A stretch of DNA of 64,000 nucleotides from a virus: positions 92,270 through 156,269 of the IMG/VR virus record IMGVR_UViG_3300048838_001106; one strand, 5' to 3'. The notes under the pieces are model-generated. The model was not told the DNA's origin. It searched no databases and saw only the letters and a program-made list of their open reading frames with translations. Each line of letters begins with the position of its first letter. Position 1 is the stretch's first letter. Made by a program: the position numbers and the translations under genes. This document shows, one piece after another, positions 5,832 through 58,137 of the stretch.

Positions 5832-5835
5832 AATC

Positions 5836-41416: not shown

Positions 41417-42322
41417 TCAGAGGCGTACGCGCGTAATCGACTTAGTGTTACCGATGCCGATTCCAGGCGCAGCGTATGAGAAGAACTCGATCATGTCGGC
41501 TTCCTGCTTGATGAACAGCGTCGCGTCCTGAAGCAAGAAGAAGTTGCCGAGGTACTCTTGAGGACCAAAGACAAAGAACTCATTGGCGGGAAGGATGTCG
41601 TTCTTGATGGTCGTAATGACGGGGTAGCCCCAGAGAACGTTTTCGTTCTCGACGCCTTCGTCATAGTGACGCGCCGCCACCGGATCGCCGACAGAAGTTG
41701 CGGGCAGCTTCAAGCAATCGTAGTAGAGCTCCTTGGTCATCAAGATCTTTCCAACGGGAATGCGTCGTGATGTAAGGTTCTTGAAAGCGTCAGCAACGTT
41801 GTCTGCGGTAAGACCACCAACCGGCGTCAACTCTTGAGCAGGGTTCATCGAAATGATGGTGTCAAGAGTCTCGTAGAAACGCTCGTCTTCCTGGTCCGCC
41901 ATGTCCTTCACAGAGTTGTCCGAGAGGATCTTGCGGATGTCGTTCTGATACGTCATCAGCTCGAACTTCGATTTGCGGAATCGCTGCGATTCGGTCTTGC
42001 CGAAGTACACTGCGTAGCGAGGTCCTTTGAACCACGTACGGGGGCCTGTGCCTTTGAATGGAACAAACGTGGCGCGTGAATCGGGCTCGATCTCTACGAT
42101 CTTCTTGGGAAGATCGGTGTGCTCGTCACGGTCGAGCTCGTCATCCGACAGGAGCTGTGGCGGGAGGATCTCTCGCGCAAACGACGCCTGGCGCAGTTTC
42201 GATCGAATGAATGCGGAGCCCTCCGCCTGGGCTTCCTTCGTCTGGCCGTTTTCAATCTTTCGAATGAAGTTGCTGTTAACAAGCTGCGCACTTACGCGCG
42301 AGGTTTCTGTATTATATGACAT
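41417..42322 (-). CDS. major capsid protein (HK97-like fold)
   Basis: 301 aa; FIR.KLR..SFAR.ILPP, D....ED..F, C-terminal GIGIGN..SI; strong terminator after it; lies between the protease/scaffold and neck genes; TKEA near the N-terminus. Confidence 0.75.
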   Translation of the reverse strand: MSYNTETSRVSAQLVNSNFIRKIENGQTKEAQAEGSAFIRSKLRQASFAREILPPQLLSDDELDRDEHTDLPKKIVEIEPDSRATFVPFKGTGPRTWFKGPRYAVYFGKTESQRFRKSKFELMTYQNDIRKILSDNSVKDMADQEDERFYETLDTIISMNPAQELTPVGGLTADNVADAFKNLTSRRIPVGKILMTKELYYDCLKLPATSVGDPVAARHYDEGVENENVLWGYPVITTIKNDILPANEFFVFGPQEYLGNFFLLQDATLFIKQEADMIEFFSYAAPGIGIGNTKSITRVRL

Positions 42323-42371
42323 GGTATTAACCTTGGTTGTATTGAATCGCTAAACGAATCACCGCCTGCTA

Positions 42372-42887
42372 TTACACAGTTACGGTGAGGACTCCTCGAG
42401 CACTGTCGTATGCACGGACTTCTGCGTATGGACGGTAGCCAGCTTTGGTAGCCAGGCTCTCGAGCTTCCCGCCGATGACGGTGACGTTGGTGCCAGGAGT
42501 ATAAGAACCGGCAACAAACTCCTCAGTCTCGAACATGTACGTTCCGCGAATTGCCACAACCTTCCATGGAATGTATCCAAGAGCGCCGCTGACATTCCCG
42601 TGCTGCAGGCCGTCGAAGTTTTGAGCGGTTGCACCAGACACTACCAGCCAGAACTGCTTGTCTGTAGACAGCGCGGTTGCCAGAGCAGGTGCGCTAGTGG
42701 TAGCGGCGGTGCCCCAGTCGGAGGCGGTAGCGCGGGCCAGTGTGCCGTCAGACTGCTGAAAGCATACATCGCCTTCCACCAGAGGAGCGTTTGAAGGCAC
42801 CGTACTGTGCTGCTTGAAGTCCTGTTCGATGGTCGAAGTGTCGGGCCATCCGCGAATCACATCAAATAGAGAATTGAGAGTACTCAT
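42372..42887 (-). CDS. putative capsid decoration / cement protein
   Basis: 171 aa immediately upstream of the capsid gene; ETEEF....Y.PG..VT...GKL. Confidence 0.55.
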   Translation of the reverse strand: MSTLNSLFDVIRGWPDTSTIEQDFKQHSTVPSNAPLVEGDVCFQQSDGTLARATASDWGTAATTSAPALATALSTDKQFWLVVSGATAQNFDGLQHGNVSGALGYIPWKVVAIRGTYMFETEEFVAGSYTPGTNVTVIGGKLESLATKAGYRPYAEVRAYDSARGVLTVTV

Positions 42888-42917
42888 CTATGCTCCTGGG
42901 TCATATAGACCGGATTG

Positions 42918-43283
42918 TTATTTAAGAACCCAACTGAGGAAATGATCATCTTCAGGTGGGAGGTTGGCTGCTGTTTTTGTCTGAGTATCCATGGAGGACC
43001 CCAGCTCTTCTGCCTCATCAAACGAGGAGAGCTTTTCTAAAAGTGCTGAGACGGCAGGGTCGCTGGATGCAGCCAGTTTGCTGATCATGGCGTCATCGAT
43101 GCTTTTGCCCATAACGGTTTGAAGTTTTTCTTTCAACACCGTTGCCTTCTTTTCGACCACGTCGCCGTGCACCTTAGAGGCTATCTTTTCAAGCTCGGCG
43201 GAACGCACTTCCAGAGCCTGGATGTACTCCGCGCTTTTTTCAAAGATGTCAGCTATGGTATCTAAAGGGTGTTGCTGCGACAT
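42918..43283 (-). CDS. putative scaffold protein, KxA-rich
   Basis: Helical; EKSA, EKIA, KKAT, SKLA, TKTA. Confidence 0.6.
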   Translation of the reverse strand: MSQQHPLDTIADIFEKSAEYIQALEVRSAELEKIASKVHGDVVEKKATVLKEKLQTVMGKSIDDAMISKLAASSDPAVSALLEKLSSFDEAEELGSSMDTQTKTAANLPPEDDHFLSWVLK

Positions 43284-43349
43284 AATGTATGCTCATGTTC
43301 TCAGTTTGAATGAAGTTATCATCGAACTCCGTGCTCGTAAACACTTTGT

Positions 43350-43520
43350 TTACGACAGACGAGAGTCTCGACGAAGTTTTGCTGTCAACAAAGCTAGCCC
43401 AGTAGATGCCTCTACGACCTGGGCCGTTTTTGTTGTTTTGTCGATACGTGCCTGCCTCCGCAATAGCTCTGCTACTTTTCGGAATATCTCAGCGGTATCA
43501 GTAGTATCTTGGTGATGCAC
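43350..43520 (-). CDS. small KxA protein
   Basis: GTG at 43520 with GGAGG; FRKVA, TKTA. Confidence 0.55.
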   Translation of the reverse strand: MHHQDTTDTAEIFRKVAELLRRQARIDKTTKTAQVVEASTGLALLTAKLRRDSRLS

Positions 43521-44490
43521 TTTGGCCTCCAAAGTTAGACATAGCTTGCCCTGCCTGTCCGATTATTTTTGGAGCAGCCACACCGGTGGCTAGCCCAGCA
43601 CCGAATGCCAGGTTGCGATTGCGGTCGGCCTCGGCCTTGGATTTGTTTTTACCATAGTGGTAGGCACCAGCAGTGCTCACAGTGCCTGCTGTCGCCAAGC
43701 CGAGCGGTAACTTCCAGTTCCGACGTGTCAAATCAACTTCGTCATCAGCTGCATCAGCAGCCGCGTTGCCCGTGCCAGGTGCAGGACCAGCGGCGGCTGC
43801 CTGAGACGGGGGTGGGCTAGCTGCCTGAGACGGGGGTGGGCTAGCAGCCGCGTTGCCCGTGCCAGGTGCAGGACCAGCGGCGGCTGTCTGAGACGATGCA
43901 GAGCCGTTGTATGTAGGAACCGTGCCGGCACTTGAAGACGCTGGTGCTGGACCAGCAGCTGCAGCTCTCGACGGGGCCGTGCCTGCGATAGACGGGTCCA
44001 TCTTTGCGGGTCTAACTTCAGGTGCCTTCGCCACAAAATCAACAACGCTTCGCTGCCACTCTTCTGGCGACACCATGTTCCCTGCAGCGTCTCTCATCCT
44101 AACTGCAGGAGCAGCAGGAGCAGCAGGAGCAGGACTTTCAAACATACGGTAGACACTGTCAGGTATTTTCTCACCGATGCGGTCCACTCCTTTGTATATT
44201 TTTTCGGCCGCATTGTTTAGCCCACGCTCAAATCCAGCGAACATACGGCCGCCTATGCCGGCGTTTTTTTCTTCGCTGCCGTACACAAGAGTGAGCACGT
44301 CATCAATGGACACGTCAGACGTGTATGTCCGTGTGTAGTCGGCTGCTAATTTGAGCAGGGTACCTAACTCCGGGTTGGCATGGACGTATTCTTCGTAGTC
44401 CCATGGCGGAGTCACAACGTATTCCGGTGCGGCTGCAGTTTTGTGCATCTCCGCGTAGATCGCCTCAATGCTGTTGGCTATAGAAGACAT
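43498..44490 (-). CDS. KxA protein with Ala/Pro-rich linker and C-terminal hydrophobic helices
   Basis: HKTA, LKLA, EKNA; internal direct repeats at ~43755-43895. Confidence 0.65.
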   Translation of the reverse strand: MSSIANSIEAIYAEMHKTAAAPEYVVTPPWDYEEYVHANPELGTLLKLAADYTRTYTSDVSIDDVLTLVYGSEEKNAGIGGRMFAGFERGLNNAAEKIYKGVDRIGEKIPDSVYRMFESPAPAAPAAPAVRMRDAAGNMVSPEEWQRSVVDFVAKAPEVRPAKMDPSIAGTAPSRAAAAGPAPASSSAGTVPTYNGSASSQTAAAGPAPGTGNAAASPPPSQAASPPPSQAAAAGPAPGTGNAAADAADDEVDLTRRNWKLPLGLATAGTVSTAGAYHYGKNKSKAEADRNRNLAFGAGLATGVAAPKIIGQAGQAMSNFGGQSASPRYY

Positions 44491-44515
44491 GACACCGCCT
44501 TAGGATAAACCCGGA

Positions 44516-45187
44516 TTATTGAGTGAGTTGTGCGTGCAAAGACTGCATGTGCTCGAAGCCTCGTTCGAAACAGTCATTACTCAGTGCTGCGACCTTTTCG
44601 AGACCGTCGTAGACGCCCTCCATGAAGTCTGCTTGCTGTGCGGCCGCTGTTTTCTCTGCGCCAGTCAATACGCCAAGCGCCCAGTCCGCATCATTGTATC
44701 CTGACACAGCAGCTTCTTTGATCATGACACCTTCAGCGTAGGCCGCCGTTTTCTCTGCGCCAGTCAGCGCGTCTAGCGCCCAGTCCGCATCATAGTATCC
44801 TGACACGGCAGCTTCTTTGATCATGGCATCCTCAGCGTAAGCGTTGTACGCGGCTGTTTTGTGTGAGCCTGGCGTTGGCGCGTTCGCTGCAAACTGGTTA
44901 GCGCGGCTAATAAAGCCGTCAAACACAGCGGCGCCGTAAAGCTGCGCTTCTTTGTGCATGCGATGTTCATCAGCAGCGGCCAGATCAGATGCCATTTTTT
45001 CTAGAGAGGCGACGGCCGACTCACTGGCTACTTTTTCTCGAGGCTGATTCAGCTGATTCAGGCTTGCACTCAGCGCGTTGCGCGCCGCATTGACGTCGAC
45101 TTGCTGGGCCGGCTGCGCCGCAGCTGCCGTTTTTTCCACAGGTGGACGATTGAGGTCCGACAAAATTTGCATGATAGATTGAGACAT
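44516..45187 (-). CDS. KxA-dense inner-head / scaffold protein
   Basis: About ten K-x-A sites (EKTA, EKVA, EKMA, HKEA, HKTA, IKEA...); internal duplication. Confidence 0.7.
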   Translation of the reverse strand: MSQSIMQILSDLNRPPVEKTAAAAQPAQQVDVNAARNALSASLNQLNQPREKVASESAVASLEKMASDLAAADEHRMHKEAQLYGAAVFDGFISRANQFAANAPTPGSHKTAAYNAYAEDAMIKEAAVSGYYDADWALDALTGAEKTAAYAEGVMIKEAAVSGYNDADWALGVLTGAEKTAAAQQADFMEGVYDGLEKVAALSNDCFERGFEHMQSLHAQLTQ

Positions 45188-45247
45188 TCTAAGTCCTTCG
45201 TTCGAGTGGTTACAACATAAGACACATTACCCAGATTTGGCAAGGCG

Positions 45248-47227
45248 TCAACGCATTAAGGCTTCTCCGATCGCCTGTATAGCATCTTCAAGGTCTACTT
45301 CATCGACAGTGGCATTCGCGAATTTAGATATGATTGGAGTCAAGTCTGGAATGTGATTTCTGACACTGGCTGCAACCGATGACGGGTGCAGTGCCATTAG
45401 TCCAGCCAGCGCGGTTGTGTTCGCGAGCCAACCCGCACTTGGGTTGTCCTGATACATTCTTGTGATTTCTGACGGCGCACCCACCATATCTTGTGTGAGC
45501 AGCGCCGTGGTTAGCGCGCCCCCGGCTATTGGAATTCCTACGTTACGCAGACCTGATGCACGTTTTTCCACGAATTCAGTGTTTACAGGGACCTTGACAC
45601 CCTCAAGCGTCTCTACGGTGGGTGTCCGCTGCTTTGTCAGCGTATCTGTGACACCCCACGCGCCACCCAACAACGCCGGTGCGGCCAGCACAGGGTGCCG
45701 GCCCGACAAGGCTTTGTATCCAATACCCGTCACCGCTGCCAATCCAGCAGCCTCTGCCATCTCTTTTTTTCGGTTGGACCAGTCAGCCTTTTCCCCTGCG
45801 CGGCGAGTCGTCTGATAAGTTTTGCCTGTCTTGTCGTCTTGCCAGTGCAGAGGCTGATTTGTCTCGGAGTAGTATGCGTTGGTAGCAGACATATTTTCGT
45901 CACCAGGCAATAGCGTTGCAATGCCTGATTGTTCGGCTAGCCCACCAACACTCTCTGGAACGTATCGCCGGGCAAGATAGTCCTTGTAAAGGGCCCTCTT
46001 TTCTTGCATAGGCGATGTCAGGTCTATCAGGTCCCGTCGGATGTATTCATGGCTCAACTTCACTAAGCCGGCGCGCTCTATCGCCGTCAAAATTTGTGGT
46101 GCCACGCGCAGGGCAGCGGCAACTTTCCCCTGCGAGTACGATAGGCGTTGCTCTATGTCTGGGTCACTAGGTAAGCCTTTCAACATACATATGAGCCGGA
46201 ACAGTTCTACAACGGTGGGCAACATCCCGATAGCGAACATGGAGCTTGCCAATTGAGGTGCGCTGCAGCCGCCAACAGAGGATAGTGCTCTGACGCTGAG
46301 AGTTGGAATCCCCGACTTCCATGGACTTAGAATCTTTGTTGTGTGGTTGACAGCGTTAACTTCAGCCGCGTCCAGCGACGGAGTAGACCTCGGATCAACA
46401 ACGTCACCGGCTACCACCTTTTCTATATCAGACACTTTCTGAAGCGCGCTTCGCTTTTCAGAGATGTCTTGCTCTTCCGCGCCTAAGTCTGCAGATGTTC
46501 GCACATCATATATGTAGGCGACTTTTTTCATCATGAAACCGATGCGATCGGCAGGCTTAAACACGAAGCTGATGTCGAACAAATCTGGTGCGGGGTTCCA
46601 CACAAAGTGACGCTCGCCATCGGGCATCAAACGGTTCATGCCATATTTAGGATTGGTACCGTTCACATGCTCGCAGTACTGCGCACGTGTGGGAGCCCGA
46701 TTGCCGCAGTGATTGCACACATCGTATTTGATGCGGCATCCCATGGACACTGCGGGGTAGTCACCTGCGTCTATTCGATCCACAATGTCTTGCCCCGCGC
46801 TATGTGATACGCGCAAGAACAATTCGACACGGTGCATTTTGTGATTATAGAACGACTTCCTGACGCCGCCCATGGACTTAGCAGGATCTTTGTTGATGTG
46901 GTGGCGATATACGTGCGCGCGCCGCTCAAATGAGCTGTGGTGCTCTGGAAGGGTTTCGCCTGGCGCCACTGCCCACTGCCCATTTACCTTTACCGGTTTC
47001 TCGGCAAACGCATCTCCGTTCCTGTTAGGACCGTAGTACTCGGAGGCACTCATTGCGAGTACCAGGACGTTGGTAAATCCTGGCTCGGTCGTAATGGTGG
47101 AAGCGTAGTCCATCACATCACTGGACGCATACTTATACAGGTGCCTGTCGCGAAGATCCAGGATCTGACATCTCGGCTCTCCTGTTTCCTCGAAATATTC
47201 GTCGAATGTGATGGTCTTTGGAAGCAT
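45248..47227 (-). CDS. prohead maturation protease with C-terminal extension
   Basis: N.NGD.F, YRHH.NKD, catalytic-type VSMGC followed by C..C...YC.H Zn insert, FDISFV..PAD; later KKVA, EKRA sites and hydrophobic helices. Confidence 0.78.
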   Translation of the reverse strand: MLPKTITFDEYFEETGEPRCQILDLRDRHLYKYASSDVMDYASTITTEPGFTNVLVLAMSASEYYGPNRNGDAFAEKPVKVNGQWAVAPGETLPEHHSSFERRAHVYRHHINKDPAKSMGGVRKSFYNHKMHRVELFLRVSHSAGQDIVDRIDAGDYPAVSMGCRIKYDVCNHCGNRAPTRAQYCEHVNGTNPKYGMNRLMPDGERHFVWNPAPDLFDISFVFKPADRIGFMMKKVAYIYDVRTSADLGAEEQDISEKRSALQKVSDIEKVVAGDVVDPRSTPSLDAAEVNAVNHTTKILSPWKSGIPTLSVRALSSVGGCSAPQLASSMFAIGMLPTVVELFRLICMLKGLPSDPDIEQRLSYSQGKVAAALRVAPQILTAIERAGLVKLSHEYIRRDLIDLTSPMQEKRALYKDYLARRYVPESVGGLAEQSGIATLLPGDENMSATNAYYSETNQPLHWQDDKTGKTYQTTRRAGEKADWSNRKKEMAEAAGLAAVTGIGYKALSGRHPVLAAPALLGGAWGVTDTLTKQRTPTVETLEGVKVPVNTEFVEKRASGLRNVGIPIAGGALTTALLTQDMVGAPSEITRMYQDNPSAGWLANTTALAGLMALHPSSVAASVRNHIPDLTPIISKFANATVDEVDLEDAIQAIGEALMR

Positions 47228-47231
47228 CTAA

Positions 47232-47771
47232 TCACCCCTCAATCGGCATAATACCGTACTGCGTACCCTGCTCTTGCTTAGGACGGGTAGCGCGGTCTAT
47301 CACACCTTTAGCACCGTAGCCCGTCAAGGCCATCGCACCCAGACCAGCGCCGGCTTGAAGGGCTCGATCGCGTGCCTGCTCAGTGGCTTTGTCTGACGCG
47401 GCTGTCGCATACAGATAAGCGGGTGCTCCCGCGCCTGTAGCCAGTGCGCCGCCGGTCAACATGGATTTGCCAGCAGACCTGAGCATCTCATTTTTGCTGA
47501 TGCCGTCTAAAACACCCCCAACGCCTGCTGTCTTGTCCAGACCAAGCACTGAAGACAGGGCGCTGAGTCCACCAAAGATGGCTTCGTTCTCCTTTCGAAC
47601 AGCCGCAGCATGTTTGGCGATGTGTCCGGCAGCATGCGCCAGCGTGAATTCCTCGGCCTCATTGTCGTGTCCGAGCAAAGAGGTAAGCGGAGCGGACCTC
47701 AGGTACGCCGTTTTCACTGTCCCGAGGCTGCCTTCTAAAGCGCGCCACAACAGGTTATCTAAATCATTCAT
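47232..47771 (-). CDS. KxA protein with Gly/Ala hydrophobic helices
   Basis: VKTA, AKHA, DKTAG. Confidence 0.65.
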   Translation of the reverse strand: MNDLDNLLWRALEGSLGTVKTAYLRSAPLTSLLGHDNEAEEFTLAHAAGHIAKHAAAVRKENEAIFGGLSALSSVLGLDKTAGVGGVLDGISKNEMLRSAGKSMLTGGALATGAGAPAYLYATAASDKATEQARDRALQAGAGLGAMALTGYGAKGVIDRATRPKQEQGTQYGIMPIEG

Positions 47772-48985
47772 TATCTGTCTCCGGTAAGCGACTGGTTCAC
47801 CCTGGCCAGGTTCCCCAACGTAGAATAGTCAGGTCCGTTCGCGCTCATAAGCGCCTCTCGAAGATAGTTTTTCACCGCAAACTCATCAGTAGCGACGTCT
47901 GGCGCGAAGCGTGTCATGGAGCCGTAGGCTTTGATGAGCAGAGCCTTGTCTGCTTCGGTAGCCTGGCTCAGCATGGGGTCGTTGGCCATAACACGTGAAA
48001 ACACTGCTGACTGGGTGAACGTAAGCGCCGCATTGCCAGCAGCATGTCCTGCGCTGCCGATTGCATTACCTACCATTTCACTCACAACTTTGCCAAGACC
48101 TCCACTGCTGCTTCGAACAAACCCAGTCAGGGCCTCATCTTGCAACTTGGTTCGGTCATCGGAGTCTGTTAACCCTTTCTGAATCTTGTAACCCCACACG
48201 TCTGCAGTCGGAGCCATCAGGTCTGCTGTGCCTGCTAGGGCTAGCATAGCCGCACCACCTCCGTACAGATTTCGCTTGTTTAGCTCACTCACTCGCTGAT
48301 AAATTCTACCATCGTTGAGGTTCATGTGTACGTCGTCACCGTGAGCTCGTCGCGCCATATCTAGCAGCTCTTGCCCTTTGTATGCGTTTTCTCCCGGCTT
48401 TAGCTGTCCCAAAAATTTGGGTGCTTGAGCATTAACAGCGTCCGTGATGTCCGCGTCACGCGTCGTCATCATCATTCTCTTGAGAAGGTCGGAGATTGGT
48501 TCCATGCCTCCGCCGACCGCGCGCCCTGCGCCACCAGAAAACAGGCCAGCATGCTTCGAGAAGCTTCTCATATTATTTGTCATCGCAGATTCTCCAGCTG
48601 ACTGTGCATGCGCAGCATGTCGCATAAAGTCTTGTCGTCTGTCGTAGTTTGTAGTGTTGGCCAGGAACGCAACGCCTGGCAGCGTAAAAGATAACAAGCT
48701 TAGGGGTTTAGTGGCTACATTTATGAGCGGATTGGCGACATATTTTTGCAACACCGGTATCTTCCTGGACGGGTCCAGGAAAGCTTCTCCTGCATTACCA
48801 ACCGTGCGGAGGGCTGCGTCGACAGCGGGCAACGCGGCTTCTGCGACATCACCTGCTGCCGCACCGCCGTGCAGCATCGACTTCAGCATGGCGCGATATG
48901 CTACGCCAGAAATACCGCGCCCCTCCATAACAGGACCGATGTCCTGTCTTGCACTGTCCCTCAGCATCTTTCCAAAAGCGCTCAT
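47771..48985 (-). CDS. KxA inner-head protein
   Basis: ATGA overlap at 48982-48985; FSKHAG; hydrophobic segments. Confidence 0.65.
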   Translation of the reverse strand: MSAFGKMLRDSARQDIGPVMEGRGISGVAYRAMLKSMLHGGAAAGDVAEAALPAVDAALRTVGNAGEAFLDPSRKIPVLQKYVANPLINVATKPLSLLSFTLPGVAFLANTTNYDRRQDFMRHAAHAQSAGESAMTNNMRSFSKHAGLFSGGAGRAVGGGMEPISDLLKRMMMTTRDADITDAVNAQAPKFLGQLKPGENAYKGQELLDMARRAHGDDVHMNLNDGRIYQRVSELNKRNLYGGGAAMLALAGTADLMAPTADVWGYKIQKGLTDSDDRTKLQDEALTGFVRSSSGGLGKVVSEMVGNAIGSAGHAAGNAALTFTQSAVFSRVMANDPMLSQATEADKALLIKAYGSMTRFAPDVATDEFAVKNYLREALMSANGPDYSTLGNLARVNQSLTGDR

Positions 48986-50512: not shown

Positions 50513-50519
50513 AGCAGGC

Positions 50520-53027
50520 TCACTCGTCTTGAGGCATAGACATACTATTGAGGGATGTTATCGCAGAGCCCATGTCGTGAAACAGTGACTCTAGCTTATC
50601 CCTAATCTCCGAATAGGATCGGTCACCAATCTGCTGCCGAAGTGGTGCTGACTTCATGCGAACTTCCGTGAGCATTCGTCCTACACCATCAAGGGCATCT
50701 CGCAGGGCTGGGGTGTATGTGGACACCGATTGGTCTACGCTGCCGTTAGACGCCATTGAGGCGATAGCAGACGCGTCGAACAACTCAGGGTCCTCCAGTT
50801 CCATGGCGGACTCCATCATGCCAGGCTCCTCTACAGGCATACCGCCAGACATATCCTGCGGCGCGCCGCCCATGCTGGGGTCCATCATGCTGGGGTCCAT
50901 CATCATTTCCATAGGAACAGGCGCGATGGACGGCGGCATTACACCCATTTCAGCAGCGATTTCATGTGCACGCTGGGTCACGGCGTTGATAGCTCCCATC
51001 TGCGTCTGCAGATTCTGCATCTGCATCTGCATCTGCATCTGAATCTGCTCATTCTGCTCCATCAAAGAGTTGGCCACTTCCTGCGCCGCCAGCTCTACCG
51101 GTGATGGAGGTGGCGGCCCCATCATGCTTGGCCCCATCATGCTTGGGTCCATCATGCTTGGGTCCATCATTGACGGATCTTGCATGCTTGGGTCCATCAT
51201 TGACGGATCTTGCATGCTTGGGTCCATCATTGACGGGTCTTGCATGCTTGGGTCCATCATTGACGGGTCTTGCATTTGCGCATTTGGGTTGGCCATCTTA
51301 ACAAGGACCGCTGCTGTTTTCCTATTACGAGGGTCCACTAGGAAGTACTCTGCGACCGACCCTTGCCGAGCAGAAGCCTCCTTTATTGCGGACTCGGCAT
51401 CTCCTACGCGAACGCCGTAAGACGCTGCCAGATGCATAGGCGCAGACGCTCCGCAATGCAGCGCGCCGTTGATGTAGTAGTCGCCAAATCCTGCGCTCTT
51501 AATCTGTATGCGCTCTGCACCGCTGCCACTCAGTGAGTGAAAGAACATCGCGGTTACTGCACGCGAGTCGCGCAAAATCTCGTGATGGTCAATGAACTCT
51601 GTCACCGGCTGAAAAGCCCACGTGTGAGGAATTATGACCTTGAGCACAGCCTCACCCGATCGGTCTGCCGTAGCTGCTCGCTCACGCATCGTCTTGAAGC
51701 CGCTGGTACCGTCAACGATACGTCCGCGTTCATATGACGTGCTGGCCTGTATAATTTTGGGCTCGTTTACAGGACTATCTGGAATCTGGATTAGCCCAAC
51801 AGGCGTGCCATCTATCAGCGTGCCTCGGACATTTCGCGCGCCATTCGCATTGTAAACAGTGTCGATTTTGACAGGCTCGAATGCGTGCACACTAGAGCTG
51901 TTCATGCTTGCGAATACCCCTCGCTGCCCATTGCGTGGCGTGCCAGCAAGCGGCTTTGTGAACATCTCTGTGAGCGCCGTTGGCACATCCTGAAACCCGA
52001 TGGGTGTAACCACAAAGGATTCAATCATGAACGCCAAACCTCCGTCGGCGAACAGTATTACATGGCCACGCTGTGTTCGAGTCTTCTCCCATTTGTACGC
52101 TGGACGAGGCCGCGTGTCTGGCGCATCCTGGCTGGCACGCATCACATCTGTAATGATAAACGCCGGTTTCTTTTCACCGTCTGCCATGTAGACATAGTAG
52201 AATCCTGGAGCTGTGGGCTCAAACAGCTGGATAGGGTGCTCCGTGCTGACCATAATGGGAGCGAAGCGCCGGTCGTCTCTAGCAGCGTATCCTTTTGAAG
52301 TGATGTCTTTGAATGCGGTAGGAGTGTCCGCGCCAAACATAGATTTCAAGACGGTCACAGGCGTTTCAGCCGTGGCGAAAGACAAACTTCCATCGAGATT
52401 AGACGCCCTTTTGGTTCGAGGCTGTGTGTGCAGCGCCTCGTGCAAATCGTTTACGTCGTAAACGCTGAATGCGTACTGCGCGATCTTCGGATACTTAGCC
52501 AGGGTGGCCAGGAATGCGGTTTTCACTCGATGCGGCGCCCCTGCAAGGTATGCAGGCAAAAGCCGGCCGTTGGACGCGTACGAGTATCGGCCCGTAGTAG
52601 GGGGCACAACGATGTTGCGTATGTCCACGTCACTCTGCGAAAACTCTGGCGGGGCTGCACTGTCTCCAATATTGGAGGTGTCCATTCGATCGAGCTCCAC
52701 TAACCAGTCTTCGGTTAGCGGCAGCATCATGTCCAGGCTCCGCACGTACATCGTGTCGAACGGCATCAACTCATTATCAGTCAGGACAACGGGTACGTGC
52801 ACCTCGTCATCCCCGCGCATGATAATGATGCTGCCTGTAGCTGTGTTGCTCTGCGGATCGGCTTCTAGAATTTTGAAAGAGGCCACCTGCTCAGCAAGCT
52901 CTGGCTTCCTTGACAGAAATTGATTCAGCGCCATGTCTTGGAAAGCGCTTTCGAACAGCTCAGTAGGAGTGGCATTGCCATTCGCACCGGGAGCTTCCAT
53001 GAGAGATTGAGTACGGGGTGAAAGCAC
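50520..53027 (-). CDS. large KxA head-associated protein with Met-rich repeats
   Basis: 835 aa; VKTA, TKRA, IKSA, RKTA, VKMA; (MMDPSMQDPS)n. Confidence 0.7.
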   Translation of the reverse strand: MLSPRTQSLMEAPGANGNATPTELFESAFQDMALNQFLSRKPELAEQVASFKILEADPQSNTATGSIIIMRGDDEVHVPVVLTDNELMPFDTMYVRSLDMMLPLTEDWLVELDRMDTSNIGDSAAPPEFSQSDVDIRNIVVPPTTGRYSYASNGRLLPAYLAGAPHRVKTAFLATLAKYPKIAQYAFSVYDVNDLHEALHTQPRTKRASNLDGSLSFATAETPVTVLKSMFGADTPTAFKDITSKGYAARDDRRFAPIMVSTEHPIQLFEPTAPGFYYVYMADGEKKPAFIITDVMRASQDAPDTRPRPAYKWEKTRTQRGHVILFADGGLAFMIESFVVTPIGFQDVPTALTEMFTKPLAGTPRNGQRGVFASMNSSSVHAFEPVKIDTVYNANGARNVRGTLIDGTPVGLIQIPDSPVNEPKIIQASTSYERGRIVDGTSGFKTMRERAATADRSGEAVLKVIIPHTWAFQPVTEFIDHHEILRDSRAVTAMFFHSLSGSGAERIQIKSAGFGDYYINGALHCGASAPMHLAASYGVRVGDAESAIKEASARQGSVAEYFLVDPRNRKTAAVLVKMANPNAQMQDPSMMDPSMQDPSMMDPSMQDPSMMDPSMQDPSMMDPSMMDPSMMGPSMMGPPPPSPVELAAQEVANSLMEQNEQIQMQMQMQMQNLQTQMGAINAVTQRAHEIAAEMGVMPPSIAPVPMEMMMDPSMMDPSMGGAPQDMSGGMPVEEPGMMESAMELEDPELFDASAIASMASNGSVDQSVSTYTPALRDALDGVGRMLTEVRMKSAPLRQQIGDRSYSEIRDKLESLFHDMGSAITSLNSMSMPQDE
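51120..51275 (-). repeat. 15/30-bp tandem repeat encoding MDPSM/QDPSM
   Basis: CATGCTTGGGTCCATCATTGACGGRTCTTG units visible. Confidence 0.85.
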
Positions 53028-53038
53028 GGTGGTCCTCT

Positions 53039-53560: not shown

Positions 53561-53563
53561 AGC

Positions 53564-54625
53564 TTATCGCCTGTGAAGGTTGGACAGGTTGCCGAGCACG
53601 GAACTTACCGACTGTTGTGGAGGCGCATAAGCGTGAGCCACTTTCTGCAGGAAGTTTCCAAGCTCGTGAGGCTCGAGCGACATGCAATGCTTGACGGCAG
53701 CTACCTTCTGATCCATCGGCATGGTTTCAGGGAGATAGGGCCCGACATCCTCCGCGGTCTGATTAAACCGGTCATTCCATCGAGCGGAGGCGCTCTTCGT
53801 TGCTTCAACTATAGAGTTAGAGCTGGCACCGCCAACACCTGTCGGGGCAAGTGGGTGTGGCTGCTCTGTGCCAATTCGGGACGCCTGCGGCTCTTTGATA
53901 TTGGCATTCCCCTGTCCGACCACTGCGTAGCCTTCTGGGCGATGCGCATCAAGTACAGCGGCAGCATCCTGGCTTCCTGCTACTGTGTTAGGAGGCGTCT
54001 CGCCAGCGCCTGTGATGACAGGGTTCTCAGCAAGTTTGTTCAACAACCTGTTGAAAGCAGCGGACTTGGAAGCCTCGACCACCGAGTTAGTTGCCGCACC
54101 ACCTACGCCTGTTGGAGCAAGTGGGTGTGGCTGTTCGGTTCCAATGCGCGCAGCTTGTGGCTCTTTGAAGTTAGCATTTCCCTGTCCGACCACTGCGTAG
54201 CCTTCTGGGCGATGCGCATCAAGTACAGCGGCAGCATCCGGGCTGGCACTCAACGTATTTGGTGTTACAGACCCGCCGGTGCCCTGCACGAGGCCTCCGC
54301 CAGCAGATTCCATGGCAAGTTTGTAGGTGAGGTGCACCAAGTCACCGTACGCATCTGAGATAGAACCCGAGATGGAAGCACCACGAGCGTTTGACGCAAA
54401 CTTGCCAGTAGCGCGCAATCGCTGGTCATAGTCTTGAATGGCGGCTGCGATCTTGATGCACTCGTCATGCGGCACAGCCTGTGATGCCGGCTCGGATTGC
54501 AGAGTCCCCGCAGCATAGGCACACGCTTCTTTAAGCAAGCCTGCTGTTGGGATGTTGGTAATGCCGGCTTGTTGCAGGTATTCACCCACACCGCGTGCGT
54601 ATGCTTGTCGGGTAACGTTTGACAT
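53564..54625 (-). CDS. KxA protein with leader-like N-terminus and internal duplication
   Basis: YARGVGEYLQQAG; LKEA, IKIA, YKLA, NKLA, QKVA; duplicated DAAAVLDAHRPEGYAVVGQGNAN..EPQA.RIGTEQPHPLAPTGVGG; promoter TTGACC-N16-TAAACT (54674-54701). Confidence 0.7.
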   Translation of the reverse strand: MSNVTRQAYARGVGEYLQQAGITNIPTAGLLKEACAYAAGTLQSEPASQAVPHDECIKIAAAIQDYDQRLRATGKFASNARGASISGSISDAYGDLVHLTYKLAMESAGGGLVQGTGGSVTPNTLSASPDAAAVLDAHRPEGYAVVGQGNANFKEPQAARIGTEQPHPLAPTGVGGAATNSVVEASKSAAFNRLLNKLAENPVITGAGETPPNTVAGSQDAAAVLDAHRPEGYAVVGQGNANIKEPQASRIGTEQPHPLAPTGVGGASSNSIVEATKSASARWNDRFNQTAEDVGPYLPETMPMDQKVAAVKHCMSLEPHELGNFLQKVAHAYAPPQQSVSSVLGNLSNLHRR

Positions 54626-54713
54626 TCTTCCTTCTCCTGTTTTGGTGTCACACACCTTTTGTACATGCACCGTAGTTTATGTGCAACTGTTGTTTGGTCA
54701 AGCTATAATTGGT

Positions 54714-57641
54714 CTAGCCGTAGTGCTGCGTTGGCGGGCGGCCGTAGCCTGACTGTTGTTGCTGTTGCTGCTGATAGTATCTGTGCTTTGCCGCTTCGGC
54801 TGCGCGCGCCGCATTGCTATAATATTGCATGTACTTGTAATTGTCCAAGCTGGAGTTAGCCGCGTTGTGTAAGCGCGCACCAACTGGAGCTGGACTGGCC
54901 GGCACGTAGTCTGGGTCTAGCTTTTCTCCGATCGCCCTGCCAGCACCTATGACAGGAGTGGCAATAGCCCAGCCGCCAAGGAAGCCCGCGGGACTCCCGA
55001 GGCCCCAGCCAGCTGTCTCACCAATGGCAGATCCGACGTTTCCAAGACGGGACTCGCCCTCGCCAGCAGGTGTTGTCGCAGCGGTGTACACCGATGCCGC
55101 AGGCAATCCGATGGTGAAAGACTTCTGCAGAGCCTCACTGCCGACCGCAGCGCCTAGTCCCATGTACCTCTCACCTGTGGTGTTAGCATGCACCCTGTAT
55201 TTCTTGCCGTTACGCTCTACGACTTTCGTTTTGTTGAACTCACGCCACGCGCGGGCTGTATCTGGATCTACCGCAAAGTCTCCAGTCAAAAGACCTCCCT
55301 TGCCTATAACGCCACCATGCTGATAACGCTGCTTCAGGACCTGCAGAGGCGACTGTCCGATGGACATATCCTGGAATACACCTTTTCCAATTCGATACCC
55401 TGTAGTGTTCTTGTCGTTCCACGCCTTGAACTTCTCTGGTGTGATGTGCTGAGACAGCCCTGGTATGTGCGCATCCAAAGCTGCAGCATCGTACTTGTGG
55501 TCCGGCGTAGGGACACCCTGCAAGGAGTTGCTCATCCTGTCCCACAAACCGGGCTTCCGCATGCCTTGAATGCTTTTCAGTGCGTTGGCGCCCTCATCTG
55601 TGACAACGCCTCCCCGCGTCACACCAGCCGATTCCCAGTCCACGCCTCCCATACCCTTGCCCATACGGCGAGCAAGGTGTGCTGATTGGTCGATGCCGCC
55701 CTGGGTCCAGCCCTTAGTTGAGATGTGTTTTAGAGGAGCGCTGTCTAACGCGCCGGGTGCGCCAAACAGAAATTTCTTAGCCATAGGTATTAACTTGCCA
55801 GCGGACGCCAGCTTTTCCAGCGCTGACTCGTACTCATCTTGCGCACTGGCATACTTGCCGTCTTGTCCTGTACCGAATGGCGTACCCATAGCAAACGCCG
55901 GCACAGGACTGGTAGACGCCACATTTGTCGTGTGTCCAAAGCCGGCTCCATCTACAAGTGTCTTTCGAAGATACCGATGCGACAATCGAGACATCCAATC
56001 GTCACTCAATAGCGGCGTTTGGATGATGGACTTCATAATGGGTTCGAACTCTGGCGACTTTGTGGACACCTCAATATCTTTGATTCCTGCTTTTTCCAGG
56101 TCTTCTATAACTCTGGATGTGACGCGCGTGCCCACGGAGTAATGCATCGCCGGCGCACCGAGAATCATGTTCTTAGCTTTGGACACCGGCACGCGCTCTG
56201 TATGCTTGCCAAACGCTTTCTGCATGTCTTTGAAAGCCACCACGTCGCCGCGGATGAACGTGTTTGTTGGGTCCTTGTCCACACGTACATAGTTCATCGA
56301 GCTGCGCGCCAGCAGTTCTGCGTGACGTCTGTCCAGATCCACGCCCTGGCGACCGTACAGATCTGATATTGAGTCGGCCATGTACTGTCGTCCGGCGCCG
56401 ACACCCTTCAATCTGACCACATCATTGGGCATTGGGGTGCCATCAGACAGTGCATCCCCCGCCTCAACTCGGTCGTTGACCTTCACGATTGGTTGCAGGC
56501 CTGGCGGAACGTAGTAGTTCTTTGCGTCTACTTTGATGTTCCACCCGCCTTGCGGTGCTTTTGTCACGCTAGATACCGTGCCATCCATTTCCGAAATGGA
56601 GGCCTTGTCCATAAATGACTTTGGAACCTCGGTCAGCGTTCTAAAACCATCTAGGCCGCTCAGAGCACGGCTCTTGCCACCGGCCATGCGTACGCCGTGC
56701 TTTGCGTTTAGAGCGAACTGCGTGAGCGGCTCGGTCAACGCCTGCGCAGACCTGACGCCTACGTTTGACCCTATGGGATATGGATTGCCCCACTCGTTTA
56801 GTCCCATGCATTTCTGACATATGCCGTCGTCTGCTTCGCATGTTGCTGGGCTTCGGACCATAATGCGGTACAGTTTCGATTTTTTAAGATCCGACAACAC
56901 GTGTGGCGTTATCAGGTCGCCAGCCATGTGAGATGCTTCAGCTCTAGCTAGATACCGGTCCACAGCCTGGGCACCAATGGGCAGCATGATTCCGCCTCTG
57001 GTTTTGCAGTCTGGGATGGTGATGACCAAATTTTCCATGTTTGACACGACGACTTTGGCCACAGCACCGGGCTCAACAACGCTGCCCGTCGAAGCGATAG
57101 CGTTGCGACGAGACTCGGCACCAGTTACCCACGCGTCGGCTGCGCTTAGCCCCTGGGAGTAAGACTTGGTAATCAACCACGGCACCTCCTGGCCGTCGGT
57201 TGACGACGCTACAACCGGAGACGCCACTGTTTTCATCAGCTGCGCCATTGAACCGCGCCCACCAGAGCGTGCCATCAGGGTCATGTCAGACTTATGGTGC
57301 GGCACGGTTGCCAAAACCTTGTCCTGGGTCTCCAGCAGAATCTTTCTCTTGTCGGCATCCGTCGTTGCTTTTTTCATCTGCGACAGCGCGCTTTTCAGGA
57401 TTGGATCACGCCTGGCGTAATCCGGCGCGATGTCGTCCAGTCCTACACTGATGCCCTCCAGAGTTGAAATATCATCTCCGACTTTTTTAACATCCTGTAT
57501 CGCACGCGCATATCCTTGTGGGTCTTTCTTAGCGTACGCAGACAGTGCCTCGGATAGCGCCTTCTTGGTGACAGGACCTGTTAAGCGCATGTCCCCCGGA
57601 AGAGCGTCGTTGAGCAGCATTTGGCCGAATGTTTCTGTCAT
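54714..57641 (-). CDS. rpoC: RNA polymerase beta'-C subunit with ~380-aa C-terminal extension
   Basis: GISVGLDD, SG.RGS..QL, bridge-helix region, VRSP.TC....ICQKC.G, VG..SAQ...EP.TQ trigger loop, D.RH.EL..R; the homology ends at KYA (~55850). Confidence 0.9.
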   Translation of the reverse strand: MTETFGQMLLNDALPGDMRLTGPVTKKALSEALSAYAKKDPQGYARAIQDVKKVGDDISTLEGISVGLDDIAPDYARRDPILKSALSQMKKATTDADKRKILLETQDKVLATVPHHKSDMTLMARSGGRGSMAQLMKTVASPVVASSTDGQEVPWLITKSYSQGLSAADAWVTGAESRRNAIASTGSVVEPGAVAKVVVSNMENLVITIPDCKTRGGIMLPIGAQAVDRYLARAEASHMAGDLITPHVLSDLKKSKLYRIMVRSPATCEADDGICQKCMGLNEWGNPYPIGSNVGVRSAQALTEPLTQFALNAKHGVRMAGGKSRALSGLDGFRTLTEVPKSFMDKASISEMDGTVSSVTKAPQGGWNIKVDAKNYYVPPGLQPIVKVNDRVEAGDALSDGTPMPNDVVRLKGVGAGRQYMADSISDLYGRQGVDLDRRHAELLARSSMNYVRVDKDPTNTFIRGDVVAFKDMQKAFGKHTERVPVSKAKNMILGAPAMHYSVGTRVTSRVIEDLEKAGIKDIEVSTKSPEFEPIMKSIIQTPLLSDDWMSRLSHRYLRKTLVDGAGFGHTTNVASTSPVPAFAMGTPFGTGQDGKYASAQDEYESALEKLASAGKLIPMAKKFLFGAPGALDSAPLKHISTKGWTQGGIDQSAHLARRMGKGMGGVDWESAGVTRGGVVTDEGANALKSIQGMRKPGLWDRMSNSLQGVPTPDHKYDAAALDAHIPGLSQHITPEKFKAWNDKNTTGYRIGKGVFQDMSIGQSPLQVLKQRYQHGGVIGKGGLLTGDFAVDPDTARAWREFNKTKVVERNGKKYRVHANTTGERYMGLGAAVGSEALQKSFTIGLPAASVYTAATTPAGEGESRLGNVGSAIGETAGWGLGSPAGFLGGWAIATPVIGAGRAIGEKLDPDYVPASPAPVGARLHNAANSSLDNYKYMQYYSNAARAAEAAKHRYYQQQQQQQSGYGRPPTQHYG

Positions 57642-57645
57642 TTAG

Positions 57646-58137
57646 TTACCCTACGCCAATGCCGCGCTGGAATCGTGTCTTGTTTAGATTGCCTATCTGG
57701 TGTGCTGTAGTTCCAGCACCGGCCACGTCAGCCGTGTGACCTAGCGCGCGTCCCACAGGTTTAACGCCAGGCGCGTCCAGCACCTTCTTTGCACTACCGG
57801 TAGCGTTACCCACACGCTGCATTGCTTTAGGCGCTACTTTAGACAGCAACCTGCCTCCGGCAGCCAGTGCACCACGCGCGGCCGCGGCAGCAGCTACACC
57901 AACCGCTGCCTCTTTCTCGGCCTGGTTGTACGCTATCAGCAGGTTTCGCATAGCAGCTGCCTTTACGGAGGGTTCCCCCATGTTGATGCCCATGCGTCCT
58001 GCCGCGTCCCCACCCTCCAACGAGGTTGGAGGCCCCCACAACACGGGGTCTACCTTGCTCATCTCTCCAACCATCTTGATGGTGTCTTCCTGCTGCTTGA
58101 TAGCACTGATCAAGTCATCAACACTTTGAATAGCCAT
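57646..58137 (-). CDS. KxA protein between the RNAP genes
   Basis: VKAAA and EKEAA, followed by a basic amphipathic segment. Confidence 0.6.
   Translation of the reverse strand: MAIQSVDDLISAIKQQEDTIKMVGEMSKVDPVLWGPPTSLEGGDAAGRMGINMGEPSVKAAAMRNLLIAYNQAEKEAAVGVAAAAAARGALAAGGRLLSKVAPKAMQRVGNATGSAKKVLDAPGVKPVGRALGHTADVAGAGTTAHQIGNLNKTRFQRGIGVG

What the first reader, a model, noticed from the sequence alone, without database searches (positions are those of the whole stretch)
41417..58137. Pervasive (E)K-x-A motif across head-module proteins: a probable protease cleavage code
Seen: nearly every protein from the capsid gene to the RNAP genes has repeated K-x-A-[AS] motifs, often at domain boundaries. 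Examples: ~10 in 223 aa at 44516..45187; ~10 at 48982..49782; TKEA near the capsid N-terminus; KYAS, KKVA and EKRA flanking the protease domain itself. By eye they are scarce in sheath, tube, spike and fibres. Established: T4 gp21 and phiKZ gp175 cut many head proteins after Glu, and HK97 protease cuts after Lys. Inference: this lineage uses a different specificity (K-x-A) and builds its inner head from polyproteins.
Basis: partly seen in the sequence, partly recalled or inferred. Interest (0 to 1): 0.82.

Follow-up and report, generated by a model that had tools for sequence, protein, structure and literature searches.

The report
Lys-x-Ala head-protease cutting code
The head-assembly proteins of this uncultured 156-kb phage and hundreds of relatives carry a short, conserved Lys-x-Ala signal, most likely the cutting site of the phage's own T4-like head-maturation protease; no cutting has yet been shown, and I found no published description of this recognition code.

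Summary
In the 15 ORFs of 41417-58137, K-x-A-[AS] occurs 35 times against 7 expected (z about 10.5). It is at chance level in the tail genes (7 vs 4.3) and in the rest of the genome (26 vs 25.8).

"Nearly every protein" is an overstatement. Five or six proteins around the protease carry the excess. The capsid protein has one site, which is nearly invariant, and the beta'-type RNA polymerase subunit inside the interval (54714-57641) is not enriched.

- **Motif:** the full form is hydrophobic-[E]-K-x-A-[S/A]. R cannot replace K, and G or S cannot replace A.
- **Spread:** it is the top over-represented gapped pair in 78 related metagenomic loci (3765 vs 2107), in Salmonella phage Arash and in Vibrio phage D69.
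- **Protease:** the catalytic domain of the 659-aa protein folds like T4 gp21 (Z 10.7). An invariant K-V-A sits in the disordered linker just after it.
- **Positive control:** the same statistic recovers T4's known [LI]-x-E code in gp22 and gp21.

Best reading (about 0.7): a new cleavage specificity of a gp21-type prohead protease, acting on scaffold and inner-head proteins and on leader-tagged cargo. The scissile bond is unknown and cleavage is not shown. The polyprotein idea is only partly supported. This scan found the same code earlier on at least 11 other genomes.

The parts
45248..47227 (-). 659-aa prohead protease protein: an N-terminal propeptide, a catalytic domain (about residues 35-230) and a roughly 420-aa C-terminal extension with Gly/Ala-rich hydrophobic stretches
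   Evidence: PHROG 18299 head maturation protease, E 2e-6. The model matches T4 gp21 5jbl_B at Z 10.7, rmsd 3.0, 138/164 residues aligned. 348 relatives in IMG/VR.
46736..46753 (-). AVSMGC: candidate catalytic Ser161, followed by an invariant Cys/His cluster (C164, C171, C174, C185, H187)
   Evidence: S161 and M162 are invariant in 32 sequences. hhalign aligns PAVS161M with T4 gp21 PGVS140S.
46898..46903 (-). H109-H110: candidate catalytic His, within RHH-I-N-K-D-P
   Evidence: H110, N112, K113 and P115 are invariant. The N-x-D-P stretch aligns with T4 gp21 N90-V-D-P just after His85.
47123..47134 (-). KYAS (residues 32-35): K-x-A site on the N-terminal flank of the catalytic domain
   Evidence: K conserved in 70% and A in 79% of 33 orthologs. 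Aligned K-x-A in Arash, D69, L003 and L004.
46514..46528 (-). KKVAY (residues 234-238): K-V-A site at the C-terminal boundary of the catalytic domain, a candidate self-release site
   Evidence: K235 and A237 are invariant in 32-33 sequences. The site lies in a pLDDT<50 linker, residues 227-243, after the last strand.
44516..45187 (-). 223-aa Ala-rich protein in the scaffold position, with 10 K-x-A sites (one per 22 residues)
   Evidence: K.A[AS] 9 vs 0.64 expected. Five sites are 100% conserved in 10 orthologs whose mean identity is 25%, and lineage-specific insertions bring extra sites.
42918..43283 (-). 121-aa acidic helical protein with 5 K-x-A sites
   Evidence: 5 vs 1.4 expected, p 0.004. 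Motif K conserved 56% against 20% for other K.
48982..49782 (-). 266-aa protein with 11 K-x-A sites; ortholog of Arash gp220 and D69 268
   Evidence: 11 vs 2.4 expected. Its orthologs are enriched too. Homology.
53564..54670 (-). 368-aa protein with 9 K-x-A sites. Two 74-aa tandem modules (54056-54277 and 53786-54007) each end in EA[ST]-K-S-A-[AS].
   Evidence: 9 vs 2.2 expected. The modules are 82% identical over 71 aa. Motif K conserved 61% against 10% for other K.
50520..53027 (-). 835-aa conserved head protein (ortholog of Arash gp218). The best-conserved site, VKMAN, is at 51288-51302 (K577).
   Evidence: 9 vs 2.4 expected. K577 is conserved 92% and opens a 65-residue disordered Pro-rich linker between two folded parts. 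No clear fold match.
41417..42322 (-). Major capsid protein with a single TKEAQ site at 42227-42241 (K29-A31)
   Evidence: PHROG 2522; 45% identical to the Arash MCP. K29 is conserved 98% and A31 100% in 51 orthologs, against 58% and 42% for other K and A. Not enriched overall.
44257..44490 (-). N-terminal roughly 78 residues of the 330-aa protein 43498-44490, with three K-x-A sites (K17, K47, K75) ahead of an Ala/Pro/Gly-rich body
   Evidence: layout read from the sequence.
47523..47771 (-). N-terminal roughly 83 residues of the 179-aa protein 47232-47771, with three K-x-A sites (K20, K53, K80) ahead of a Gly/Ala-rich hydrophobic body
   Evidence: Same layout as 43498-44490: both have K-x-A-G-[IV]-G-G at the third site.
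57646..58137 (-). 163-aa Ala/Gly-rich protein between the two RNAP genes, with 3 K-x-A sites
   Evidence: K.A[AS] 2 vs 0.47, p 0.07.
54714..57641 (-). RNAP beta'-type subunit; not enriched
   Evidence: PHROG 25354 and 3015. K.A 5 vs 7.3 expected.
3378..9406 (.). Outside the given interval: six ORFs whose N-termini share a leader Y-x2-G-h-x3-h-x-x-A-G-L followed by or containing K-x-A. Eight more such ORFs lie 43-50 kb upstream of the window.
32083..32928 (-). Outside the interval: 281-aa Gly-rich protein made of two units, each opening with RRPFLEK[IL]A. The second unit (32464-32517) is preceded by K-Q-A-S. ORF 36606-37025 has the same leader.

Best explanation
K-x-A, in full [L/M/I/F]-[E]-K-[V/T/Q/E/I/L]-A-[S/A/E], is the substrate recognition motif of this phage's prohead protease.

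**The enzyme.** The protease is the N-terminal domain of the 659-aa protein at 45248-47227. It has the T4 gp21 / herpesvirus assemblin fold, with Ser161 and His110 as the likely catalytic pair.

**Inferred sequence of events inside the prohead:**
1. The protease frees itself by cutting at the sites that flank its catalytic domain (K32-A34 and the invariant K235-A237).
2. It chops the motif-dense, Ala-rich scaffold-like proteins (44516-45187, 42918-43283, 48982-49782) into short pieces.
3. It trims about 30 residues from the capsid protein's N-terminus.
4. It separates modules of the inner-head proteins (53564-54670; 50520-53027 at K577).
5. It removes short N-terminal leaders from cargo proteins encoded elsewhere in the genome.

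**What is shown.** Enrichment, its restriction to head proteins, site conservation, spread across the clade, the fold of the enzyme and the placement of sites.

**What is inferred.** That cutting happens at all, and where. I lean to a cut after Ala (P3 = K, P1 = A). That is the same P3-x-P1 register as T4 [LI]-x-E, phiKZ [SAG]-x-E and herpesvirus [VLI]-x-A|S. A cut after Lys, as in HK97, is not excluded.
For: **Enrichment**
- It is specific to the head module and survives composition and local-composition nulls.
- K.A is the top gapped pair without prior choice.

**Same proteins enriched in distant relatives**
- Arash gp220, gp222 (the protease), gp223 and gp225; Vibrio D69 268, 270, 271 and 273.
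- In 78 IMG/VR loci, K.A[AS] occurs 1536 times against 446 expected. Over 1090 non-redundant proteins K.A occurs 3765 times against 2107 (z 36).
- R.A has a ratio of 0.98, K.G 0.74 and K.S 0.86, so both K and A are strict. The middle residue favours V, T, Q, E and I and avoids G, P and D, as expected for a strand docked in a cleft.

**A compact motif.** Information is confined to six positions, as for a short linear motif.

**Site-level selection**
- Motif K is conserved 0.45 against 0.27 for other K (p 1e-4); motif A 0.49 against 0.26 (p 7e-7).
- MCP K29 and A31 are conserved 98% and 100%.
- Five sites in 44516-45187 are invariant although mean identity is 25%.

**The enzyme**
- Best structural match is T4 gp21, Z 10.7, well above the next rows at 7.0 or less.
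- S161 aligns with gp21 S140.
- K235 and A237 are invariant and lie in a disordered linker at the domain's end.
- Phage G gp19 has the same flanking layout: h.K.A 7 vs 0.72 expected.

**Positive control.** The same test on T4 finds [LI].E enriched in gp22 (16 vs 5.6), gp21 (7 vs 2.6), gp68 and gp23, but not in tube or portal. K.A is not enriched there.

**Leaders ending in K-x-A.** They sit on unrelated proteins elsewhere in the genome, matching T4's capsid-targeting sequence plus cut-site layout (PMC9024508 for the concept).

**Multiple motifs per propeptide.** This is known from SPN3US (PMC10052503).
Against: - No experimental cleavage data exist for this phage or any relative I could find. 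The Arash virion proteome (PMC10585845) gives no peptide-level data; its 80-100% coverage of gp220-gp225 neither shows nor excludes cutting.
- Many K-x-A sites in 50520-53027 lie inside predicted helices or strands, so not every occurrence can be a site.
- The protease has no Pfam match and no sequence-level PDB match. The His assignment needs a 2-3-residue indel against T4.
- Rhodococcus phage E3, a more distant relative of the protease, shows no enrichment.
Confidence: 0.7

Rival explanations
1. K-x-A is a docking or targeting motif that is bound but not cut. For example, it could be a multivalent contact of scaffold and cargo proteins with the shell interior, the portal or an exosite of the protease. 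Cleavage, if any, would occur elsewhere.
For: The motif ends or follows N-terminal leaders of unrelated proteins, and multivalent repeats suit a scaffold. In the Arash proteome the motif-rich proteins are reported with 80-100% coverage (PMC10585845).
Against: - An invariant site in the disordered linker directly after the catalytic domain, plus another before it, is the layout of self-activation.
- The T4 control shows that real cleavage motifs give exactly this distribution.
- The strictness of K and A and the strand-favouring middle residue fit an active-site cleft.
- Targeting and cutting are not exclusive.
Confidence: 0.15
2. The motif is a by-product of Ala/Lys/Glu-rich helical proteins, such as a helix-stabilising pattern, with no specific reader.
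For: The enriched proteins are Ala-rich (up to 22% Ala) and probably helical.
Against: - The reverse pattern A.K and the shifted patterns are at chance.
- Block shuffles that keep local composition leave z at 7-11.
- R does not replace K, and G or S do not replace A.
- Single invariant sites occur in non-Ala-rich contexts: the MCP and the protease linker.
Confidence: 0.05
3. K-x-A marks lysines for a covalent modification, such as acetylation by the virion acetyltransferase domain or a cross-link, and does not mark a cut.
For: Lys is strictly required. A GNAT domain is inserted in the RNAP beta gene of this phage.
Against: Arash and D69 RNAP beta align with the window's protein on both sides of residues about 593-745, which hold the GNAT match, but not across them. 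Both phages nevertheless have the motif. The placement at both flanks of the protease domain is unexplained by this reading.
Confidence: 0.04

Closest known systems
Phage T4 prohead protease gp21 (PDB 5jbl) with its [L/I]-x-E cleavage sites, the scaffold gp22 it degrades, and the capsid-targeting sequences of the internal proteins
   Same: - Same fold (Z 10.7).
- The Ser aligns.
- The gene lies in the head module next to scaffold-like genes.
- The motif is enriched in the scaffold and in the protease itself, and flanks the catalytic domain.
- There are N-terminal leaders on cargo proteins.
   Different: - The motif is K-x-A, not [LI]-x-E; no [LI].E excess appears here.
- There is no Pfam or PDB sequence match.
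- A Cys/His cluster follows the catalytic Ser, which T4 gp21 lacks.
- The protease carries a 420-aa C-terminal extension.
phiKZ gp175 / SPN3US gp245 prohead proteases with [S/A/G]-x-E or A-x-E sites
   Same: - Many head and ejection proteins are processed.
- Several motifs occur per propeptide.
- Virion-packaged RNA polymerase is encoded among the head genes (PMC10052503).
   Different: - Those enzymes cut after Glu.
- Here Glu is only a weak preference one residue before Lys.
- The genome is smaller (156 kb) and the capsid protein is only 301 aa.
Herpesvirus assemblin with its release and maturation sites [V/L/I]-x-A|S
   Same: - Related fold (Z 5-6.3).
- The protease is fused to a long C-terminal part, with a conserved x-A site at the junction.
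- Ala is strictly required, often followed by Ser.
   Different: - Lys is two residues before Ala, where herpesviruses have V, L or I.
- The residue after Ala is variable at the best-conserved sites (Y, E, H, N, Q, G).
- Cutting after Ala is only inferred. The herpesvirus consensus is quoted from my own knowledge.
HK97 gp4 protease cutting gp5 after Lys103
   Same: A Lys lies at or next to the cut, and the enzyme belongs to the same broad fold class.
   Different: HK97 has no described K-x-A consensus. Its capsid protein carries a 103-residue delta domain, absent here. HK97 details are from my own knowledge and from the reference list of PMC10052503.

Membership tests
T4 gp21-type prohead serine protease (assemblin-like fold) | Assemblin/gp21 fold of the catalytic domain | tested here: met
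   AlphaFold model on 32 sequences, pLDDT 75.8. 5jbl_B at Z 10.7, rmsd 3.0, 138/164 aligned; next unrelated rows at 7.0 or less. Foldseek's top hit is 5jbl, probability 0.9.
T4 gp21-type prohead serine protease (assemblin-like fold) | Conserved catalytic Ser and His | tested here: met
   S161 and H110 are invariant in 32 sequences. hhalign pairs S161 with T4 S140. H110 lies 2-3 residues out of register with T4 H85, before a shared N-x-D-P. The T4 residue numbers are from my own knowledge.
T4 gp21-type prohead serine protease (assemblin-like fold) | Sequence membership in the curated family models | tested here: not met
   No Pfam-A hit at E 0.01 or better and no PDB sequence hit. Only PHROG 18299 'head maturation protease' at E 2e-6. 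hhalign to T4 gp21 gives E 0.054 over 51 columns.
T4 gp21-type prohead serine protease (assemblin-like fold) | Cleavage after Glu in [L/I]-x-E (T4) or [S/A/G]-x-E (phiKZ group) | tested here: not met
   No L.E, I.E, A.E, S.E or G.E among the top enriched pairs in the head interval; K.A stands alone. The same test finds [LI].E in T4. Actual cleavage is not testable with these tools.
T4 gp21-type prohead serine protease (assemblin-like fold) | Encoded in the head module, with scaffold-like and capsid genes downstream | tested here: met
   Order on the minus strand: RNAP genes, head proteins, protease, two motif-rich proteins, MCP. Same order in Arash and D69.
T4-type capsid targeting sequence (leader plus cut site on packaged proteins) | Shared short N-terminal leader on otherwise unrelated proteins, ending at the protease motif | tested here: met
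   At least ten ORFs carry Y-x2-G-h-x3-h-x-x-A-G-L with K-x-A in or after it. Two ORFs, one with a repeated internal copy, carry RRPFLEK[IL]A.
T4-type capsid targeting sequence (leader plus cut site on packaged proteins) | The leader is sufficient to load a protein into the head and is removed there | not testable with these tools
   Needs virion proteomics or reporter fusions.
Herpesvirus assemblin | Ser-His-His triad and cleavage at A|S | tested here: inconclusive
   Herpes proteases match at Z 5-6.3. Adjacent H109-H110 exist, but the third triad residue was not mapped. Ala is strict, and S or A follow it in about 40% of sites. The cut position is unknown.

The most novel reading that the evidence does not exclude
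A large, uncharacterised clade of gp21-fold prohead proteases cuts after Ala in K-x-A|[S/A]. The clade has hundreds of members in IMG/VR and includes Arash-like and Vibrio phages and phage G. That register is the one used by herpesvirus assemblin, not the 'after Glu' rule of every characterised T4-type enzyme.

Together with short N-terminal leaders, this would give a sequence-readable 'load into the head, then cut' code. The code would predict the packaged and injected proteome of uncultured phages. It would include release of enzyme modules from larger carriers, such as the acetyltransferase bracketed by K-x-A sites inside RNA polymerase beta.
Probability: 0.35. Interest if true: 0.75.

Novelty: new variant of a known kind. 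Interest (0 to 1): 0.6.

Why it matters
Maturation by a prohead protease is well understood in T4, phiKZ/SPN3US and HK97, but the recognition code is known for only a few enzymes.

If K-x-A is confirmed, it would:
- add a new specificity to the gp21/assemblin fold, possibly linking the phage and herpesvirus registers;
- allow head-internal and injected proteins to be predicted from sequence alone in a clade of mostly uncultured 100-500-kb phages;
- give a handle (leader plus site) for loading foreign proteins into the capsids of cultivable members such as Arash.

The code can be tested directly on cultured phages by standard proteomics.

Tried and rejected
- **Complex prediction.** The protease domain (A2, residues 36-232) with the 223-aa substrate (A3, residues 40-130) returned 'no answer', score 0.06. 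It counts neither for nor against binding.
- **Database matches for the protease.** A PDB sequence search with the protease profile found nothing meaningful. Pfam gave nothing for ten head proteins.
- **The 835-aa protein.** A Foldseek search with its model gave no clear match.
- **Solved capsids.** A PDB sequence search with the MCP found no solved relative that could reveal a mature N-terminus.
- **Published proteomics.** The Arash paper and its supplements hold no peptide-level data. The phage G multi-omics paper has no cleavage data. The phage G capsid structure paper is not in the library.
- **Prior description.** Literature searches for a published K-x-A code found none, but the library is limited.
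- **Close cultured relative.** A megablast of the head module against GenBank phages found no match.
- **Natural protein ends.** I looked at natural N- and C-termini in 1090 related proteins for product-like ends that would reveal the scissile bond, and found none. The only pattern is that K-x-A is rare within the last 9 residues.
- **Chance or composition.** Rejected by several nulls.
Full report
**Setting.** The window is the last 64 kb of a single 156,269-bp phage contig. The contig closes on itself through a 42-bp tandem repeat present at both ends.

The interval 41417-58137 is a minus-strand head module. Its genes, in the order found:
- a 301-aa major capsid protein (41417-42322; PHROG 2522; 45% identical to the Arash MCP);
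- a 659-aa protein whose N-terminal third matches head maturation proteases (45248-47227);
- about ten proteins with no family assignment;
- one beta/beta'-like RNA polymerase gene at 54714-57641. The second, 58142-62974, lies just beyond the interval.

The portal homolog lies just across the contig junction. The nearest cultured relatives are Salmonella phage Arash and three Vibrio phages, at 38-45% identity for the capsid protein and protease. Gene order is the same in them.

The counts against residue shuffles within each ORF:

| Gene set | Pattern | Observed | Expected | z |
|---|---|---|---|---|
| Head interval (15 ORFs) | K.A[AS] | 35 | 7.0 | 10.5 |
| Head interval | K.A | 70 | 33 | 6.8 |
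| Head interval | EK.A | 17 | 1.8 | 11.4 |
| Tail (23 ORFs) | K.A[AS] | 7 | 4.3 | 1.4 |
| Rest of genome (156 ORFs) | K.A[AS] | 26 | 25.8 | 0.0 |

- The reversed and shifted controls [AS]A.K, R.A[AS] and KA.[AS] are at chance in all three sets.
- Shuffling only within 10-30-residue blocks, which preserves local Ala-richness, leaves z at 7-11. Removing the two internally repetitive proteins leaves z at 6.3.
- Without choosing the motif in advance, K.A is the most over-represented of all residue pairs at gaps 0-3 in this interval.

The claim needs one correction. The excess is carried by 42918-43283, 44516-45187, 48982-49782, 50520-53027 and 53564-54670, and weakly by the protease protein. The capsid protein, 42372-42887, 47771-49021, 53039-53560 and both RNAP genes are not enriched.

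**What the motif looks like.** In this phage, in Arash and in D69 the logo is the same: a hydrophobic residue (mostly Leu or Met) two positions before Lys, often Glu just before it, then K-x-A, then Ser or Ala.

Pooled over 190 enriched, non-redundant proteins from related loci (1605 sites), information is confined to those six positions. Over 1090 proteins:
- K.A is 1.79-fold over expectation, while R.A is 0.98, K.G 0.74 and K.S 0.86;
- the middle residue favours V, T, Q, E and I and avoids G, P and D.

This is the profile of a short linear motif read in an extended conformation. It is not the profile of a helical repeat.

**Lineage-wide and under selection.**
- The orthologous proteins are enriched in Arash (gp220, the protease gp222, gp223, gp225) and in D69 (268, 270, 271, 273). 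Their RNAP, portal and capsid proteins are not.
- A profile of the protease domain finds 348 relatives in IMG/VR. In 78 usable loci K.A[AS] occurs 1536 times against 446 expected. K.A is the top pair in 39 loci; among the other loci the top pair is often L.K or M.K, which are part of the same motif.
- In alignments of orthologs, Lys and Ala inside the motif are conserved far more than other Lys and Ala of the same proteins: 0.45 against 0.27, and 0.49 against 0.26 (p 1e-4 and 7e-7).
- In the 223-aa protein, five sites are invariant in ten orthologs that otherwise share 25% identity. Lineage-specific insertions arrive already carrying new K-x-A sites.
- The capsid protein's only site, K29-E-A31, is conserved in 98-100% of 51 orthologs. 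The 30 residues before it are less conserved than the 20 after it.

**The enzyme.** The N-terminal 290 residues, modelled on 32 sequences (pLDDT 75.8), match T4 gp21 best: 5jbl_B, Z 10.7, rmsd 3.0 Å, 138 of 164 residues. The next rows are at Z 7.0 or less, and herpesvirus proteases score Z 5-6.3.
- Ser161 (AVSMGC) and His110 are invariant.
- A profile comparison pairs Ser161 with T4 Ser140 and aligns the N-x-D-P that follows the His.
- The family is distant from T4: there is no Pfam hit and no PDB sequence hit.
- It has an invariant Cys/His cluster right after the catalytic Ser, which T4 gp21 lacks.
- K235 and A237 are invariant and lie in a pLDDT<50 linker directly after the last strand of the domain.
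- A second site, K32-A34, precedes the domain and is shared by Arash, D69 and others.
- Phage G gp19, only 27% identical, has the same arrangement, with hydrophobic-x-K-x-A 7 times against 0.72 expected.

Sites on both flanks of the catalytic domain are what self-activation requires. From my own knowledge, T4 gp21 is activated this way.

**Positive and negative controls.** The same statistic applied to T4 finds its established [LI]-x-E code enriched in the scaffold gp22 (16 vs 5.6), in gp21 itself (7 vs 2.6), in gp68 and in gp23. It is not enriched in the tube or portal, and K.A is not enriched in T4. So a real cleavage code has exactly the distribution seen here. Rhodococcus phage E3, a more distant relative of the protease, shows no K.A excess.

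**Beyond the interval.**
- Many otherwise unrelated proteins elsewhere in the genome begin with a shared leader, Y-x2-G-h-x3-h-x-x-A-G-L, that contains or is followed by K-x-A. Six are at window 3378-9406 and eight are 43-50 kb upstream of the window.
- A second leader, RRPFLEK[IL]A, opens ORF 36606-37025 and both halves of the two-unit Gly-rich ORF 32083-32928. The internal copy is preceded by K-Q-A-S.

This is the layout of T4's capsid-targeting sequence plus cut site.

**Polyproteins or a scaffold to be destroyed?** Three proteins have tandem units bounded by the motif:
- 53564-54670, with two 74-aa modules 82% identical, each ending EA[ST]KSA;
- 44516-45187, with roughly 33-residue units bounded by EKTAA;
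- 32083-32928.

In the 835-aa protein the best-conserved site (K577, 92%) opens a 65-residue disordered linker between two folded parts. Most of its other sites lie inside predicted helices or strands and are poorly conserved. So 'often at domain boundaries' holds for the conserved sites only.

For the densest proteins, which sit in the scaffold position, degradation as with T4 gp22 is the simpler reading. The Arash virion proteome reports gp220-gp225 at 80-100% coverage, which would suggest that fragments stay in the head. However, 116 of 252 proteins were detected, so purity is doubtful, and no peptide-level data are given.

**Which bond?** This is unknown. Natural protein ends gave no clue. 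I lean to a cut after Ala for two reasons:
- The three characterised families of this fold all specify P3 and P1, with the motif ending at the cut: T4 [LI]-x-E, phiKZ/SPN3US [SAG]-x-E (PMC10052503), and herpesvirus [VLI]-x-A|S (the last from my own knowledge).
- Ala admits no substitute here.

A cut after Lys, as in HK97, would instead make Ala an invariant P2' residue. That is unusual but not excluded.

**Novelty and verdict.** The mechanism is a known kind: a prohead protease, a degradable scaffold, propeptides and targeting leaders. The recognition code is not one I know, and I did not find it in the papers searched, though that library is limited. The same code was reported earlier by this scan on at least 11 other genomes and on other windows of this genome. 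Those notes are leads, not independent evidence.

I rate the cleavage-motif reading at about 0.7, a non-cut docking motif at 0.15, and composition or modification readings at 0.05 or less each. The test is ordinary and feasible on cultured Arash or Vibrio phages.

Noticed in passing
window 63755-64000, and genome positions 15-100: A 42-bp tandem repeat (5.9 copies) runs off the contig end and reappears at the contig start, so the contig is a closed circle broken inside the array. On the + strand it encodes a Pro/Thr-rich 14-residue repeat that continues into the 421-aa ORF at the genome start. The minus-strand ORF 63467-63976 is probably a shadow and not part of the head module.
   Followed up: partly
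window 46655-46747 (protease residues 161-191): Invariant C164, C171, C174, C185 and H187 directly follow the catalytic Ser. This looks like a zinc-binding insert. Phage G gp19 has it; T4 gp21 does not.
   Followed up: partly
window 43498-44490, 47232-47771, 45248-46000, 57646-58137: Several head proteins end in Gly/Ala-rich hydrophobic stretches that look membrane-active. These are possibly ejection proteins that act on the host envelope.
   Followed up: no
window 32083-32928 and 36606-37025: Gly-rich proteins among the tail genes open with the same leader, RRPFLEK[IL]A. The first is a two-unit protein with an internal copy of the leader.
   Followed up: partly
genome 20345-21682 (71.9 to 70.6 kb upstream of the window start): A 445-aa protein with a Walker A-like GIGKT has 8 K.A against 2.3 expected (0 of 1000 shuffles reached 8) but no K.A[AS]. 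Unexplained.
   Followed up: no
genome 1729-3450, minus strand (outside the window): The portal gene (31% identical to Arash gp204) overlaps the start of a 749-aa plus-strand ORF at genome 3393-5642 by about 58 bases. It carries a single K.A site.
   Followed up: partly
window 50520-53027: An 835-aa protein conserved in 54 related loci. It is modelled as an N-terminal mixed alpha/beta part, a long Pro-rich disordered linker and a C-terminal helical domain. It has no clear match in the PDB. Its Arash ortholog gp218 is abundant in virions.
   Followed up: partly
Cutting at both would also split the polymerase subunit.
   Followed up: partly
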